NCBI RefSeq assembly: GCF_024298765.1
Contig: NZ_CP101210.1
Length of the DNA stretch: 64,000 bases
Reading direction: 5' to 3' (one strand)
Origin: Escherichia coli
GTDB lineage: Bacteria > Pseudomonadota > Gammaproteobacteria > Enterobacterales > Enterobacteriaceae
A program made the position numbers. Within the stretch, counting starts at the first letter, position 1. Each line of letters starts with the position of its first letter. Shown piece by piece: positions 12,001 through 18,000 of this stretch.

Positions 12001-15000
12001 GGCAATAAGGGCGCGTGCGCTATCCACTTTTTTGCCCGTCCATATTCAACGGCTTCTTTGAGGAGTTCATTTTCCATCGTTTTCTTGCCGAGCAGGCGCT
12101 GGAGTTCTTTAATCTGCTTCATGGCGGCAGCAAGTTCAGAGGCAGGAACAACCTGTTCTCCGGCGGCGACAGCAGTAAGACTTCCTTCCTGGTATTGCTT
12201 ACGCCAGAGAAATAACTGGCTGGCTGCTACACCATGTTGCCGGGCAACGAGGGAGACCGTCATCCCCGGTTCAAAGCTCTGCTGAACAATTGCGATCTTT
12301 TCCTGTGTGGTACGCCGTCTGCGTTTCTCCGGTCCTAAGACATCAATCATCTGCTCTCCAATGACTAGTCTAAAAACTAGTATTAAGACTATCACTTAAA
12401 TAAGTGATACTGGTTGTCTGGAGATTCAGGGGGCCAGTCTACGGCTTCCCCGCCATGTCAACGCCGGTATTTATGGTTTCTGTTTGCTTTTCTGTAAAAA
12501 TAAAGGGGAGAGACGACGGTACTATAAACAACCATGATGAATCTCATCTATTCGGCCCAGATGAAAGACGCGCGTGAGGCTCTTGTTCGTTAAGCGGATA
12601 CGTATATCCTGTACAATAATCAGATATACCTCACAGGGTCTAACACTTTATCATCAACGAGTTGCAGATCAGATAGTCATACGGTTGCTGCGTGCTTTAG
12701 CTGGCTGAATACAGCCTGAAATCATCACCGTAATGACATGATGCCCAGCACAGCCTTACCTTTCTGGCGGCGATGGCCACAACAGCGCGTCAGTATTCTC
12801 TGCGTTCAACCAGTGAACAGACCCAACGACTGAATGAGTCAGTCCTTTTCTCAGCACCAATCAGTACTGAACGAGCCCCCTGAACCAGAAGCATTCGCAG
12901 ATACGAATCACCGGCTTTTGTTATCCTGCCCAGCTTCGACATTCAGCCGCTGCTGTATTGTGATAGCGTCAGCCCAGCCAGGCTGCCAGTTGCCGTCCCT
13001 TTTTAAAATCATGTGCATTACCGATACAGGCAACCAGCGCACAGGCTGTTGTGGGACCAACTCCTTTTAGCTCCATCAGCTGTTTAATACGGATATCATC
13101 CCTTGCAGCCTCATGAAGACGGTGGTCATGAGACGATATGAGTTCATTTTACTCTGACAGTTCGCACAACAAACGGATGAAGGGTCATTCCACTGCCCCT
13201 GGGCAGTATTCCCTGCTGGATTTTACGCACGTGCCTTATCCCCACAGGCAGCAGCAGACCAAATTCACTCAACAGCCCCCGGATTTCATTACGCAACGCC
13301 GTTCGCTCGCGGATGATTCTGGCCCGGACCCGGTATTCTTCCTGTAACGTCTGCTGGGATTCCGATATGAAAACAACAAATCGCATGCCGGGCCTGCTGA
13401 CGGCCTCACAGATGGCAGCTGCATTATTAGCGTCGTTTTTGTTACCTTTGAGATAAGATTTGACAAGTTTCTACGGAATAATGCGCACGGTAGGCCCCAT
13501 ACGGAATGAGTTCCCGTGCCCAGAATGGGAAGAGCCACAGACTTCGATGCTGATGAGGCAGGGAGAAAGCCCGGAGAAAAACGTCATCATGTGGGGAGGG
13601 CTCAGCGTTTTTCTCCGTACCACTATTCATTGTGATCAACGCCGTGGATTTGAAAAACATTTTTCGGCAAGATCGAAACCAATACGATTAATATTCATGA
13701 CTGACTTCTCCACCAGGGAACTGGGTACATCTCAGTCTGGAACGTTGATGCCGTAAGGAGGAAGATGTCAATCACATCGGCCTACACGCGATGTTAGCTC
13801 AGATAGGCGAAACGTATCCGACATTACACTGGTTAAGACTTCGTCGATTTCTCAAAGCGGCGTAGTAACTGATTCCCACGCTCAACGGCGGTATCCAGCG
13901 CCTGCTGTGGCGTCTTCTTACCGGTCCACACGCTCTCAAGCTCTTCATCCACAATCGCTCTGATCTGCGGCATGTTGCCCAGACGTAGTCCTTTGGTGAA
14001 CGGTAACGACGGTTTGTTCAGCATCTGACGTGTCGCGATATCCGCCCCTGGGTTTTTCTCGTAAAAGCCCTGCTCACGGGTCAGGTCATACGCCGCTTTG
14101 GTGATTGGCAGATAACCGGTTTTCTGGTGCCACTCGGCAGCATTTTCTGGCTTCGCGAGGAAGTCGAGGAACTTCGCCACGCCGGTATACGTTTCTTTAT
14201 CTTTGCCCTGCATCACCCACAGGCTGGCTCCGCCGATAATGGCGTTTTGTGGTGCATCTTTCGCGTCAGCGTCGTAAGGCATCATGCCTACGCCGTAGTT
14301 GAATTTGGCGTACTCGCGAATGCTGGCAAGAGAACCAGAAGAGGCAGTCGTCATTGCGCAATCACCGTTATAGAACTTCTCGGTGGATTCATCCTTACGC
14401 CCGACGTAGCTGAAATCGCCTTTCTTGTTCATCTCTTCGAGCATGGCGATGTGTTTCACCTGCTCCGGCTTGTTGAACTCCAGCACCGCATCTGTGCCGT
14501 CAAAGCCGTTGTTTTTGCTGGCAAACGGCAGACCGTTCCAGGCGCTAAAGTTTTCCAGTTGGATCCAGCCCTGCCAGCCGCTGGAGTAGCCGCACTTCAT
14601 ACCGGAGGCTTTCAGTTTCGCGGCATAGTCCGCCAGATCCTGCCAGGTTTTCGGCGGCTGTTCCGGGTCTAATCCTGCTTTCTTGAAAGCATCTTTGTTG
14701 TAATAGAGAACAGGAGTCGAGCTGTTGAACGGCTGGGAGAGTAAGTGTCCGGTTTTACTGTCGGAGTAGTAGCCTGAAACCGTCGGCACAAACTGCGACT
14801 CATCAAAGTTAATCCCCGCCTCTTTAAACACGTCATACACCGGTTTAATGGCTTTCGACGCCATCATGGTGGCGGTGCCAACTTCATAAACCTGCAAAAT
14901 AGCCGGAGCGTTACCGGTACGAAATGCTGCGATCCCCGCACTTAAACTCTCTTCGTAGTTGCCTTTATAAGTCGGTATAATTTTGTAATCCGGGTTTTCG

Positions 15001-18000
15001 GCGTTAAAACGTTGGACCAGAGAATTCACCTCTTTACCCAGTTCCCCTTCCATAGAGTGCCAGAACGGAATGGTCGTCACTGCCTGTGCATTCCCCATTA
15101 ACGTCAGTCCGAGCACTAGTGCTGAAGCTGTATAATGTAACGGTTTCATCGTTTATCTCTCTTGCTTGTTGTACCTGATGAGCGAATTCACACGTTTCAT
15201 GCTCGTGGGATTAAATATCATGCCCGAATTGCAGAAAAATAACTTTTTTATTACATGTGTTAGACAGTAAAGTGTTAGAAAGATGACAGAGCAGTGACGG
15301 CACAGGTGAGACGTGGTGGATTGAATTTGATCCTGCTGTTGACAGTGAAATCCGCAAGACATGTCCGGCAGTGATCGTGAGCAATGACGCAGCAAACAGG
15401 AACCTCGCTCGAGTAGTCGTCGTTCCTCTGACCAGTAACACAGAGCGAGTGTATCCAAGTGAGGCTGTTGTGACCGTAGGTGTCAGAGCAGCAAAGCGAT
15501 TGTAGAGCAGATTATGGCGGCGGATAAGTCCTGTCTCAAAACACATATTGGCTCGTTGTCCAAAGCAGATATGTTGTCTGTTGAGGACGCAATCAAGATC
15601 CATCTTGGTTTACTGCGGTAACGCCATGTGAATCTGTCGGCTACCGCCATTAGTGACGGAATTTTCTGTGGGGCAGCGTACCAATGGCATTCGGTTAAGT
15701 TCTTGCTGGAGCATCAAAAGAGTTCCAGCGCGTTCTGGGCCGTACATATTTTCGTGGGTAACACCTCCCTGGCCTTACTCGCTGAGTCATACAACTGCGA
15801 TCGATTCAGATGCCATTTTGCAATCAGCCTCTCAGAAAGAGCGCAACAGAATGATTTTAAATGTTTTCCTGTTACCCGAATCAGTAAAGACAAGTACCTC
15901 ACTACGAGAAACAAGCAGTTTTTGAAATTAAAATTTTGTTTATTTCTACTACTACCGATGAAAACGTTATTATCTTAATAATTAATGTCATTTCAGGATA
16001 TCCATGTAAGGTTAAGTAATAATATATGAGCCTGTATTTTTATTTTACATCTTTCTCACTCTGTGAATGAAAATCTTCAATAGAAAATTTGATTTGAATA
16101 ATTTATATAACTCTTCTATATTACATCAATGCCGATAGAAATCGTAAAAAGCTTCGTTTTCATAAAAATCTCTTTCAATAATATTTGTAGCTGGACCAGC
16201 CCCTTGAAACGCCAGATAGTGGATGTATCTTAAAATAAGAGACAGGCTTGGATATATGTCTGACACTGGTTCTAATTTTGAGATGACTGGAACTTTGCCG
16301 GGGCTGGAGCTTCGTAAACGTAAAACTCCTCAGGAAAAAATTGGCATTATTCAGCAGACAATGGAGCCTGGCATGGCGGTGTCACATGTGGCGCGTTTGC
16401 GTTGTATTCAGCCCTGCCTGTTGTTTAAGTGGAAAAACAATCTCTGGAAGGAAGTCTCACTGCTGTTGCTTCAGGAGAGGGTGTCGTTCCTGCCTCAGAA
16501 CTGCCTGCCGCTATAAAACAAATAAAAGAGTTACAGCTCTTGCTGGGTAAAAAACCATGGAAGTTTAGATCCTCAAAGAAGTGGTGGAGTATGCGCAATC
16601 GCGAAAATGGATAGCGCATGTGCCCTTGTTACCTTCGGACAAGGAATAGCCCCGGTAAGCCGTGTTCTGGGCGATACTCAGGCGGCAGTCCCTAAATGAA
16701 GGACTACCGTTAGTGAATGCAAAGCGCGTTTACCGGATAATGAGCGAAAATATCCTGTTGTTACATGACAAACCATCACGACTGCAGCGGGAACATAAAG
16801 GCCGAATATCGGTAAGGAAAGCGACCAGCGTTGATGTTCTGATGGCTTTGAGTTCGGTTGCGATGATGGCGAAAAAGTCCGGGTTACGTTCGCCCTGGAC
16901 TGTTGCGATCGTGAAGCTATCGACTGGGCATCCAATACGGGAGGTTACAATAAAGCGACAGTGCAGGATGTGATGTTAGGAGCGATAGAAAAACTCTTTG
17001 GCGATAAAGTACCGGAACAGTCCATCCGGTGGTTGACAGATAACGGTTCAGCGTATAGAGCGCATGAAACACGGCAGTTCGCCAGAGAGTTGGATCTGGA
17101 GCCCTGCACAACGGCAATCAGCAGCTCTCAGAGTAATGGAATGGCAGAAAGGTTAGTGAAAACGATGAAGGAAGACTACATTGCGTTCATACCGAAACCG
17201 AATGTAATAACGGCATTGCATAACCTTGCATAGGCGTTCGAGAATTACAATGAGAACCACCCGCATAGTGCGTTAGGTTATCTCTCACCACGGGAATATC
17301 GATGTCAGCGGATAACGTCACCTTAGATGTAGCAGTTGCCAAACAGTGACTCAAGGGCAGGCTTACCGCATACGCTGACACTTAGCTGATCGACAGAATA
17401 TTATTAACAGTTCATCACTGAACGCTACATAATCAGAGTTGCATAAATAAAATGTTATGTTATAACATTTTAATACCAACATATGTTTTCGAATGTATAT
17501 GAATGTAATCAGAACTGTCATTTGTACATTAATTATAGTCCCGGTGGGACTACAGGCAGCGACCAGTCATTCTTCTATGGCTAAAGATACAATCACCATT
17601 GTCGCGACAGGAAATCAGAACACGGTATTTGAAACGCCGTCGATGGTCAGTGTCGTCACGAATGACACACCGTGGAGTCAGAATGCGGTTACATCGGCCG
17701 GCATGCTGAAAGGTGTTGCCGGTCTCAGCCAGACTGGTGCAGGACGGACCAATGGGCAGACCTTTAATCTACGCGGCTATGACAAAAGCGGGGTACTTGT
17801 TCTTGTTGACGGCGTCCGCCAACTCAGTGACATGGCAAAAAGCAGTGGCACTTATCTGGATCCGGCTCTTGTCAAACGTATCGAAGTTGTCCGCGGGCCA
17901 AACTCCAGTCTGTACGGCAGTGGCGGGCTGGGAGGTGTAGTGGACTTCAGAACTGCCGATGCAGCAGATTTCCTTCCCCCCGGAGAGACAAACGGTTTAA

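What the first reader, a model, noticed from the sequence alone, without database searches (positions are those of the whole stretch)
12690..15620. Orphan ugpB with its Pho-box promoter, stranded between an IS110-family remnant and a truncated toxin gene
A full-length ugpB with an upstream region carrying CTGTCA-type Pho boxes is present, but ugpAECQ is absent downstream (a degraded IS110-type transposase instead) and livF is absent upstream (a truncated PemK/MazF-like toxin gene abuts the promoter). Either this is a rearrangement breakpoint that split the ugp operon, or a captured duplicate copy of ugpB.
Basis: partly seen in the sequence, partly recalled or inferred. Interest (0 to 1): 0.55.

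Follow-up and report, generated by a model that had tools for sequence, protein, structure and literature searches.

The report
Island-borne second copy of ugpB
This is an intact, horizontally acquired extra copy of the phosphate-starvation gene ugpB, carried with its own promoter but without its transporter partners on a mobile genomic island of mainly poultry and extraintestinal E. coli; it is a captured gene, not a broken operon or an assembly error, and is of modest interest.

Summary
Window 13833-15149 (-) is a full-length ugpB of 438 aa. Only 1,533 bp (13778-15310) are homologous to the core ugp locus: the gene, 161 bp of promoter with the phased Pho boxes, and 55 bp of 3' flank.

The window is a selC-associated genomic island. 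The identical segment occurs in 194 of 5,426 complete E. coli genomes and never on plasmids. A genome identical at the locus (strain 104) keeps an intact core livF-ugpBAECQ. "Split operon" and "assembly error" are therefore refuted; "captured copy" is right.

The copy is a xenolog, not a recent duplicate. It is 94.7% nt identical to K-12 (13 aa differences, dS 0.22) and about as distant from E. albertii.

The downstream junction is the native insertion junction of a REP-targeting IS110-family element in the REP after ugpB. The upstream junction cuts a pemK/mazF gene at about codon 12.

Island copies carry patches of core-type sequence, which indicates gene conversion.

Function is inferred, not shown: a PhoB-induced extra periplasmic glycerol-3-phosphate binding protein that feeds the core UgpAEC and/or acts as a bile chaperone. 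A hitch-hiking relic is not excluded. Interest is modest.

The parts
13833..15149 (-). Island-borne ugpB: an intact 438-aa sn-glycerol-3-phosphate/glycerophosphodiester periplasmic binding protein with its signal peptide
   Evidence: ORF. NF008211 UgpB equivalog, 931.9 bits against a cut-off of 411. PDB 4AQ4 E = 1.3e-281. 94.7% nt identity and 13 aa differences from K-12, dN/dS 0.067. Ligand residues Glu66 and Trp169 (mature numbering; precursor E89 and W192) are kept.
15150..15310 (-). Native ugpB 5' UTR and PhoB-dependent promoter. The array of 11-bp-phased Pho half-sites lies at 15235-15289. The orthologue of the K-12 in vivo PhoB site lies at 15250-15267.
   Evidence: 132 of 161 positions identical to K-12. 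Half-site register conserved. K-12 site taken from PhoB ChIP-chip, PMC3465305. Homology to all core loci tested stops at 15310.
13778..13832 (-). ugpB 3' flank, ending in the retained half of the REP element that lies in the ugpB-ugpA spacer
   Evidence: 49 of 55 positions identical to K-12. Homology ends at CGGCCTAC of the REP.
12442..13777 (-). Decayed hybrid IS110-family element: LE 13699-13777, transposase pseudogene 12697-13698, RE 12442-12696. Its LE junction with the REP forms the downstream boundary of the captured ugpB fragment.
   Evidence: tblastn against an intact IS110 transposase shows stops and frameshifts. Positions 12443-13080 are 91% identical to the IS on plasmid pTW10722_147; positions 13072-13785 are 87% identical to the E2348/69 rrf-kgtP remnant. 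The same ...ATCACAT|CGGCCTAC REP junction is seen in E2348/69. REP targeting by IS110/IS621 elements is described in PMC11208160 and PMC1525189.
15311..15621 (+). PemK/MazF-type toxin gene remnant. It lacks about 11-13 N-terminal codons and its antitoxin gene, and is frameshifted (pieces about 15311-15505 and 15514-15621). It forms the upstream boundary of the captured fragment.
   Evidence: Frame translations. It matches NCBIfam MazF model positions 14-69 of 111 at 29 bits, below the cut-off of 120. Pfam PF02452 on the called fragments. RefSeq annotation.
11112..12441 (-). IS2 inserted exactly at the RE terminus of the IS110 remnant. It is present in this window and strain 104 but absent from the other 15 fetched copies that reach this site.
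   Evidence: Comparison of the window with the IS2-free locus L084. Annotated as IS2 in strain 104.
9659..11002 (-). Secreted 'esterase-like activity of phytase' protein gene (PF13449). It is co-directional with ugpB and is its constant neighbour in the mobile module.
   Evidence: Present at the same spacing in all 10 contexts and in BEN2908. No NCBIfam or PDB sequence match.

Best explanation
What it is (shown). The feature is a 1.53-kb fragment of a ugp locus from a lineage about as distant from E. coli as E. albertii is. It comprises the promoter with its Pho boxes, the complete ugpB, and 55 bp of 3' flank. It lies in a conserved module (pemK'-ugpB-IS110'-phytase-like esterase) on tRNA-associated genomic islands: at selC in this window and at leuX in BEN2908. 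Host genomes keep their own complete ugpBAECQ.

How it got there (partly shown, partly inferred). A REP-targeting IS110-family element inserted at its usual site in the REP just downstream of ugpB. That native junction is now the downstream end of the fragment. The IS is a hybrid of two IS110-type elements. I infer that recombination between IS copies joined ugpB to the phytase-like gene. The upstream end is an illegitimate join inside a pemK/mazF gene.

What it does (inferred). Under phosphate limitation PhoB~P activates the retained promoter, and the protein is exported through its intact signal peptide. It then serves as an additional periplasmic G3P/glycerophosphodiester binding protein that docks on the core UgpAEC2 permease (97% aa identity to the resident UgpB). 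Alternatively or additionally, it contributes the transporter-independent bile-responsive chaperone activity described for UgpB. In either case it acts as a dosage or variant paralogue.

The two copies also exchange sequence by gene conversion (shown).

Sub-confidences: captured xenolog on an island, about 0.97. REP/IS110 junction, about 0.85. IS-IS recombination step, about 0.5. Expressed and useful to the cell, about 0.55.
For: Structure and copy number
- Homology to core loci is limited to 13778-15310.
- The core operon is intact in the same genome.
- The island copy is present in 194 of 5,426 complete genomes and none are on plasmids. The exact protein is indexed in 5,223 assembly blocks, always with the same neighbours, inside different larger contexts. 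The same module sits at leuX in BEN2908.

Divergence
- 94.7% nt identity to K-12, dS 0.22. 93.8% CDS identity to E. albertii, dS 0.26. K-12 against E. albertii gives dS 0.25.
- No core allele in the rows sampled is closer than 93.6% over the fragment; 5,223 genomes fall in the 90-95% band.

Junctions
- The junction ...ATCACAT|CGGCCTAC is identical in geometry to an independent copy in the rrf-kgtP REP of E2348/69.
- IS621 and other IS110-family elements target ATC(A/G)GGCCTAC in REPs (PMC11208160; PMC1525189).
- The IS remnant is a hybrid of two element types.

Functional plausibility
- UgpB equivalog score is far above the cut-off.
- Glu66 and Trp169 are kept.
- The ORF is intact while both flanking genes are riddled with stops and frameshifts.
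- Overall dN/dS is 0.067.
- Pho half-sites keep their register, and the orthologue of the ChIP-bound K-12 site is retained.
- UgpB overexpression confers bile resistance independently of transport (review PMC8144458).

Gene conversion
- The CS5L island copy is core-type over 13832-14436 and island-type elsewhere.
- 13 of 17 polymorphic sites among island copies carry the core nucleotide.
Against: - No expression or binding data exist for this allele.
- Amino-acid change is elevated on the island branch. By my three-taxon arithmetic, dN is about 0.012 on dS of about 0.11, giving omega of about 0.10, against 0.03-0.04 for the core branches.
- Ten island-specific substitutions include two at positions invariant in 81 other Enterobacterales UgpBs (A45V, P381S) and one at a position conserved in 80 of 81 (A189S, three residues before Trp169). 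This fits relaxed constraint as well as functional change.
- Island copies are almost identical to each other, so post-capture purifying selection cannot be measured. The synonymous-only pattern in L083-L092 is an ascertainment artefact, because those loci were retrieved by exact protein identity.
- Intactness could reflect recency, or repair by conversion from the core copy.
- In one lineage (L088) IS1 has removed the promoter. A second, independent ugpB capture has decayed.
- The donor lineage was not found.
- The IS-IS recombination step is inferred only from the hybrid structure.
Confidence: 0.6

Rival explanations
1. Hitch-hiking relic. The ugpB fragment was captured by chance during IS-mediated island assembly and gives no benefit. 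It looks intact only because the capture and spread are recent, and because gene conversion from the resident core copy keeps repairing it.
For: - Island copies are 99.6-100% identical to one another, apart from the mosaic CS5L copy (98.7%), so there has been little time for decay.
- Amino-acid change on the island branch is elevated, including changes at two otherwise invariant positions.
- Core-to-island conversion patches exist.
- One lineage has lost the promoter to IS1.
- A second captured ugpB has decayed.
Against: - The ORF, signal peptide, RBS, Pho-box array and known ligand residues are all intact, while both adjacent genes carry multiple disruptions.
- The module is kept together in several different island backbones and in thousands of assemblies.
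- ugpB with its promoter has been captured at least twice.
Confidence: 0.33
2. Neofunctionalised binding protein. The island UgpB has shifted specificity, for example toward another organophosphate such as a product of the neighbouring phytase-like esterase, or it serves a different partner such as a sensor.
For: - Substitutions cluster in helix 1 bordering the binding cleft (D42N, A45V = mature 19 and 22) and next to Trp169 (A189S = mature 166).
- It is constantly linked, co-directionally, to a secreted phytase-like protein, with no terminator-like site between them on that strand.
- The islands also carry other P-scavenging genes: pgtAB in strain 104 and PhoX in BEN2908.
Against: - Only 13 aa differences from K-12, and Glu66 and Trp169 are unchanged.
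- The adjacency to the phytase-like gene was created by an IS remnant and is interrupted by IS2 in this window.
- No structural or binding data are available.
Confidence: 0.08
3. Rearrangement breakpoint. The resident ugp operon was split, leaving ugpB stranded here and ugpAECQ elsewhere.
For: Only the local absence of ugpA and livF.
Against: - An intact livF-ugpBAECQ lies elsewhere in the same genome.
- The allele is 5-8% divergent from all core alleles sampled.
- The locus lies inside a selC island bounded by an integrase gene and tRNA-Sec.
Confidence: 0.01
4. Assembly artefact: a chimeric join at IS or REP repeats.
For: Repeats (IS2, IS110, REP) flank the gene.
Against: The junctions are identical in 194 independently closed genomes, in 5 metagenome contigs, and in thousands of assemblies.
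Confidence: 0.01

Closest known systems
Core E. coli UgpB (b3453; PDB 4AQ4 and 6X84), the binding protein of the PhoB-regulated UgpBAEC2 G3P/glycerophosphodiester importer
   Same: 97% aa identity and the same length. Signal peptide and Glu66/Trp169 retained. Orthologous Pho-box promoter.
   Different: - No adjacent ugpAECQ.
- Located on a selC or leuX genomic island.
- 10 lineage-specific substitutions, including A45V and P381S at otherwise invariant positions.
- Promoter truncated at -161, so any element further upstream is lost. From memory of Kasahara 1991, which I could not read here, this would include the carbon-starvation promoter.
Orphan or shared substrate-binding proteins that use another operon's permease, such as MppA with OppBCDF (PMC3173086). 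LivJ/LivK with LivHMGF and HisJ/ArgT with HisQMP2 are cited from established knowledge.
   Same: A lone SBP gene, paralogous to the SBP of a complete ABC importer in the same genome. It is therefore expected to dock on that importer.
   Different: Those pairs are old, diverged paralogues with distinct specificities. This one is a recent xenolog, 97% identical to the resident SBP, carried on a mobile island. Sharing of the permease has not been tested.
IS621 and other REP-targeting IS110-family (bridge-RNA/seekRNA-guided) insertion sequences
   Same: DEDD-type transposase homology. No terminal inverted repeats. The insertion junction lies at the ...CGGCCTAC part of a REP, and the same junction occurs at a second REP in E2348/69.
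   Different: - Not IS621 itself: the LE is short (79 nt) and the RE long (about 255 nt), and the orientation relative to the REP is opposite to the IS621 target as written.
- The element is a decayed hybrid of two types.
- No Rfam RNA match.
UgpB as a bile-responsive periplasmic chaperone (Lee et al. 2020, as reviewed in PMC8144458)
   Same: This gives a transporter-independent role in which extra UgpB dosage is beneficial. That would make a lone copy useful.
   Different: It has been shown only for the core K-12 protein. Nothing has been tested for the island allele.

Membership tests
UgpB (NCBIfam NF008211 equivalog; Pfam SBP_bac_1/SBP_bac_8) | Whole-protein score above the curated equivalog cut-off | tested here: met
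   931.9 bits against a cut-off of 411, covering residues 2-437. Pfam PF01547 and PF13416 are on record for the exact protein.
UgpB | Ligand-contacting residues named for the E. coli G3P complex (Glu66 and Trp169, mature numbering) | tested here: met
   Precursor E89 and W192 are present. The residues are named in bioRxiv 10.1101/529602. Other contact residues were not checked.
UgpB | N-terminal Sec signal peptide with an AXA cleavage site | tested here: inconclusive
   The sequence [26 protein letters not shown] is collinear with K-12, with A12V and A16T in the h-region. The PDB constructs start at residues 22-24. No signal-peptide predictor was available.
Ugp operon (ugpBAECQ) | Adjacent permease genes (ugpA, ugpE), ATPase gene (ugpC) and phosphodiesterase gene (ugpQ) | tested here: not met
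   Homology to the ugp locus ends 55 bp after the stop codon and an IS110 remnant follows. The complete operon exists only at the core locus.
Pho regulon promoter | Pho boxes (11-bp direct repeats with a CTGTCAT core) replacing the -35 region | tested here: met
   Five phased half-sites in the K-12 register. The best 18-mer scores 14/18. The orthologue of the ChIP-bound K-12 site is retained. The consensus match alone is not above chance.
Pho regulon promoter | PhoB~P binding and Pi-dependent induction | not testable with these tools
   Requires EMSA or ChIP, or allele-specific RT-qPCR, in an island-positive strain.
IS110 family | DEDD transposase (PF01548 / PF02371) | tested here: met
   tblastn against an intact 341-aa IS110 transposase: aa 1-173 at 36.5%, aa 194-249 at 71%, aa 238-340 at 80.6%. 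The match is interrupted by stops and frameshifts, so this is a pseudogene. RefSeq annotation.
IS110 family (REP-targeting subgroup) | Site-specific insertion in REP sequences | tested here: met
   The LE abuts CGGCCTAC of a REP both here and at an independent REP in E2348/69, where the empty site was defined by comparison with K-12. No intact copy of this IS type was found in E. coli.
PemK/MazF toxin | Full-length toxin of about 110 aa with an upstream antitoxin gene | tested here: not met
   Only model positions 14-69 of 111 are matched, at 29 bits (cut-off 120). There is a frameshift before the C-terminal 35 aa, and no antitoxin gene.
Orphan SBP sharing a resident ABC permease (MppA-like arrangement) | Transport through the paralogue's permease | not testable with these tools
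   Requires genetic complementation of a mutant deleted for the core ugpB.

The most novel reading that the evidence does not exclude
The island UgpB is a selected accessory factor of poultry-associated and extraintestinal E. coli. On this reading it is a PhoB-induced binding protein with altered cleft residues (A45V, A189S, P381S). It would either widen the organophosphate range fed into the core UgpAEC, possibly in concert with the co-travelling secreted phytase-like esterase, or boost bile and periplasmic stress tolerance as a transporter-independent chaperone. REP-targeting, RNA-guided IS110 elements would then be a recurrent route by which core genes with their promoters are recruited onto genomic islands, since ugpB has been captured at least twice.
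Probability: 0.15. Interest if true: 0.55.

Novelty: new member of a known kind. Interest (0 to 1): 0.3.

Why it matters
The locus is a clean, datable example of how a core gene and its regulatory region get onto a mobile island. An IS110-family element landed in the REP behind the gene and left a recognisable junction. The same locus shows that a resident gene and its island xenolog keep exchanging sequence by gene conversion. That matters for allele-based typing and for interpreting ugpB polymorphism.

If the copy is expressed, about 3.6% of complete E. coli genomes, enriched for poultry and ExPEC isolates, make two UgpB variants under phosphate starvation. That would bear on organophosphate scavenging and bile tolerance in the gut. 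Practically, annotation pipelines name both genes ugpB, so transcriptomic and proteomic reads can be mis-assigned between them.

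Tried and rejected
- Donor search by protein. It returned only two Escherichia loci (E. albertii and a second 'E. coli' representative), and neither is closer than K-12. E. fergusonii, E. marmotae, E. ruysiae and E. whittamii were therefore not examined.\n- Donor search by DNA. An island-specific 24-mer from the 3' flank gave 5 metagenome contigs. All were the island module with the IS110 remnant and none had ugpA.\n- Rfam scan of 9000-17500 at E <= 1: no RNA family and no bridge-RNA model hit.\n- Pho-box consensus scan: not above chance on its own, so I rely on orthology instead.\n- Intact relatives. 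A search for intact copies of the 5' IS type and of the pemK gene in E. coli found only the island copies and the decayed E2348/69-type remnant.\n- Polymorphism among island copies as a test of selection. I rejected this because ten loci had been retrieved by exact protein identity, and most variable sites are conversion patches.\n- Literature. I found no paper in the searchable library that discusses this island ugpB. Chouikha 2006, Kasahara 1991 and Choi 2003 are not held.\n- AGI-3. My first guess that the window is AGI-3 of BEN2908 was not confirmed. In BEN2908 the module lies at leuX.\n- Phytase-like neighbour: no NCBIfam or PDB sequence match.

Full report

Yes. Window 13833-15149 (-) is an uninterrupted 438-aa ORF. 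It scores 931.9 bits against the NCBIfam UgpB equivalog (cut-off 411). It aligns end to end with the solved E. coli UgpB structures 4AQ4 and 6X84.

An alignment with the K-12 ugp locus shows that homology is confined to window 13778-15310, 1,533 bp at 93.2% identity. This covers the gene, 161 bp upstream (132 of 161 identical) and 55 bp downstream (49 of 55 identical).

Downstream lies an IS110-family transposase pseudogene at 12697-13698 (-) with several stops and frameshifts. Upstream lies a PemK/MazF remnant that lacks its first 11-13 codons or so and is frameshifted.

**2. Pho boxes**

On the coding strand the island promoter reads CTGTCATCTTT CTAACACTTTA CTGTCTAACAC ATGTAATAAAA AAGTTATTTTT. 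K-12 reads TTGTCATCTTT CTGACACCTTA CTATCTTACAA ATGTAACAAAA AAGTTATTTTT. Both are arrays of 11-bp repeats in the same register, starting 140 and 136 nt before the ATG respectively.

The Pho box is defined as 11-bp direct repeats with a CTGTCAT core (PMC4447250; PMC2648988). The K-12 site found under the PhoB ChIP-chip peak, CTATCTTACAAATGTAAC (PMC3465305), has its orthologue at window 15250-15267.

A bare consensus scan is not significant: 4 hits of at least 14/18 in the window against 2.5 expected. The claim therefore rests on orthology to a characterised promoter, not on motif statistics.

Homology stops at -161. Anything further upstream in the native promoter is lost. From memory of Kasahara 1991, which I could not read here, this would include the carbon-starvation promoter.

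**3. Where is it?**

The window is a selC-associated genomic island. tRNA-Sec is at 35162-35256. By alignment to strain 104, a tyrosine-integrase gene lies next to it.

The 3.9-kb segment is at least 99% identical and collinear in 194 of 5,426 complete E. coli genomes and is never on a plasmid. About half of the sampled positive genomes are from poultry, and many of the rest are from human infections. The exact protein is indexed in 5,223 blocks of public assemblies.

In all ten contexts returned, ugpB is followed at constant spacing by the IS110 remnant and a secreted 'phytase-like esterase' gene (PF13449). In nine of them it is preceded by the pemK remnant; in L088 an IS1 sits there instead. 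The DNA beyond this module differs between contexts. In BEN2908 the same module lies in a leuX island. An assembly artefact is excluded.

**4. Split operon or captured copy?**

Strain 104 is identical to the window at the locus. About 270 kb from the island it has an intact livF-(phd/doc)-ugpB-ugpA-ugpE-ugpC-ugpQ. Island-positive genomes show two or more ugpB places. The operon is therefore not split.

The island gene is not a recent duplicate either.
- It differs from K-12 at 70 of 1,317 nt, with 13 aa differences, dS 0.22 and dN/dS 0.067.
- Over the fragment it is 91.9-93.6% identical to the core alleles sampled; 5,223 genomes fall in the 90-95% band.
- It is about as far from E. coli (CDS 94.2-94.8%) as from E. 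albertii (93.8%). K-12 and E. albertii differ by a similar amount (94.6%).

It is a xenolog from an Escherichia-level lineage that I could not identify.

**5. How was it captured?**

*The downstream junction.* The ugp homology ends inside the REP of the ugpB-ugpA spacer. K-12 reads ...GCTTATC|CGGCCTACACGCG, and the island reads ...TCAATCACAT|CGGCCTACACGCG.

The 5' part of the IS remnant (13072-13785) is 87% identical to a decayed IS110-family element between rrf and kgtP in E2348/69. Comparison with the empty K-12 site shows that this element sits in a REP with the same junction...CCATCACAT|CGGCCTACGCAAG.

IS621 and other IS110-family elements are known to insert site-specifically at ATC(A/G)GGCCTAC in REPs (PMC11208160; PMC1525189). 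The downstream boundary of the captured fragment is therefore the native insertion junction of a REP-targeting IS.

*The hybrid IS.* The 3' part of the remnant (12443-13080) is instead 91% identical to a different IS110-family element found on plasmids, and its 5' part shows no nucleotide similarity to that element. The two homologies overlap at 13072-13080. I infer, but cannot show, that recombination between two IS110-type copies joined 'ugpB-REP::IS' to 'IS-phytase-like gene'.

*The upstream junction.* It has no IS. It cuts a pemK/mazF gene at about codon 12 and removes its antitoxin gene, which points to an illegitimate join.

*IS2.* In this window an IS2 (11112-12441) has additionally landed exactly at the RE terminus of the IS110 remnant. 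The other 15 fetched copies that reach this site (L083-L092, L096, L100-L104) lack it.

**6. Is it functional?**

*For function.*
- The ORF, RBS, signal-peptide region, Pho-box array and the ligand residues Glu66 and Trp169 (precursor E89 and W192) are intact. Both neighbouring genes are heavily disrupted.
- At 97% identity to the resident UgpB, docking on the core UgpAE is plausible.
- UgpB also has a transporter-independent role as a bile-responsive chaperone, and overexpression gives bile resistance (PMC8144458). A lone extra copy could therefore pay its way.
- Orphan binding proteins that use another operon's permease are well known, for example MppA with Opp (PMC3173086).

*Against function, or neutral.*
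- Three-taxon arithmetic puts the island branch at dN of about 0.012 on dS of about 0.11, giving omega of about 0.10. The K-12 and E. albertii branches give about 0.03-0.04.
- Ten substitutions are island-specific. They include A45V and P381S at positions invariant in 81 other Enterobacterales UgpBs, and A189S at a position conserved in 80 of 81, three residues before Trp169. This fits either relaxed constraint or a shift in function.
- Island copies are too similar to one another to measure selection since capture. Ten of my comparison loci had been retrieved by exact protein identity, which biases against non-synonymous variants.
- One lineage has lost the promoter to IS1.

I rate 'expressed and useful' at about 0.55 and 'hitch-hiking relic' at about 0.33.

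**7. Paralogue interaction**

In strain CS5L the island copy is island-type in the promoter and the 5' half, but carries E. coli core-type bases across 13832-14436.

Among the island copies I fetched, 13 of 17 polymorphic sites in ugpB show the nucleotide found in core alleles. The equally long IS remnant has only 5 variable sites. By my arithmetic, a random mutation would match the core state about 2% of the time. Recurrent short-patch gene conversion from the resident gene into the island copy is therefore the best explanation.

**8. Comparison with what is known, and novelty**

By every sequence criterion the protein is a UgpB. It is not part of a Ugp operon. It works like the known cases of orphan or shared binding proteins, but it differs in being a near-identical xenolog on a mobile island.

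RefSeq already annotates it as ugpB in hundreds of genomes. I found no paper discussing it. I class it as a new member of a known kind. The REP/IS110 capture junction and the core-to-island conversion are the most instructive details. Interest: 0.3.

Noticed in passing
L099 (strain CS5L) 6001-7533, equivalent to window 13778-15310; also L096, L101, L102, L103: Island ugpB copies are mosaics. CS5L carries core-type bases over window-equivalent 13832-14436. 13 of 17 polymorphic sites among island copies match the core allele. This points to recurrent gene conversion from the resident ugpB.
   Followed up: yes
L098 (strain SCU-115) 2972-3746, with neighbours to 7148: A second, independent ugpB capture, found in 17 complete genomes. 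It keeps the promoter and 5' end (90.6% identical to the island copy, 84% to K-12, reaching K-12 position -256). It has an internal deletion and is truncated by IS66. It lies beside a decayed ABC ATPase gene, a decayed permease gene and a PhoX phosphatase gene.
   Followed up: partly
window 9659-11002 (-): A secreted 'esterase-like activity of phytase' protein (PF13449). It has no NCBIfam or PDB sequence match. It always travels with the island ugpB, is co-directional with it, and has no terminator-like site between the two on that strand. A lone CTGTCAT half-site lies about 70 nt upstream of its ATG (13/18 match at 11066-11083).
   Followed up: partly
L001 1-2632 (strain 104, left of the window); L096 32479-34458 (BEN2908): The islands that carry this module also carry other phosphorus-scavenging genes: pgtB and pgtA in strain 104 and a PhoX-family phosphatase in BEN2908. 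This may be a loose organophosphate-acquisition theme, or it may be coincidence.
   Followed up: no
window 11112-12441: IS2 is inserted exactly at the RE terminus of the IS110 remnant, with a 5-6 bp target overlap. It is present in the window and in strain 104 but absent from the other 15 fetched copies that reach this site. It would be polar on any read-through from ugpB into the phytase-like gene.
   Followed up: yes
window 12442-13777; L093 2501-3332; L094 2381-3022: The IS110 remnant is a hybrid. Its 5' part matches an E2348/69 rrf-kgtP remnant and its 3' part matches a plasmid-borne IS110-family element. The two homologies overlap at 13072-13080. No intact copy of the 5' type was found in 5,426 E. 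coli genomes.
   Followed up: partly
L097 25889-26484 (strain 104 core locus): The core livF-ugpB spacer of strain 104 holds a phd/yefM-doc toxin-antitoxin pair that K-12 lacks. This spacer therefore accepts insertions in nature.
   Followed up: no
L088 5272-6001: In one lineage an IS1 replaces the island ugpB promoter up to 16 nt before the ATG. The Pho boxes are removed but the ORF is left intact.
   Followed up: partly
L096 (BEN2908) 15691-20323 and tRNA-Leu at 39974-40058: The same pemK'-ugpB-IS110'-phytase-like module and about 25 kb of shared island genes sit at leuX in BEN2908 rather than at selC. The island backbone is therefore modular and uses more than one tRNA site.
   Followed up: partly
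window 17493-20273 (+): A TonB-dependent heme/hemoglobin-type receptor (TIGR01785, 414 bits), followed by a DUF4198 protein. These are the nearest intact cargo genes to the right of the ugpB module.
   Followed up: no
window 20544-23242: An extra 2.7 kb relative to strain 104, with ORFs of 523, 115 and 225 aa on the minus strand. This looks like an IS66-type tnpC/tnpB/tnpA set, but I did not check it.
   Followed up: no
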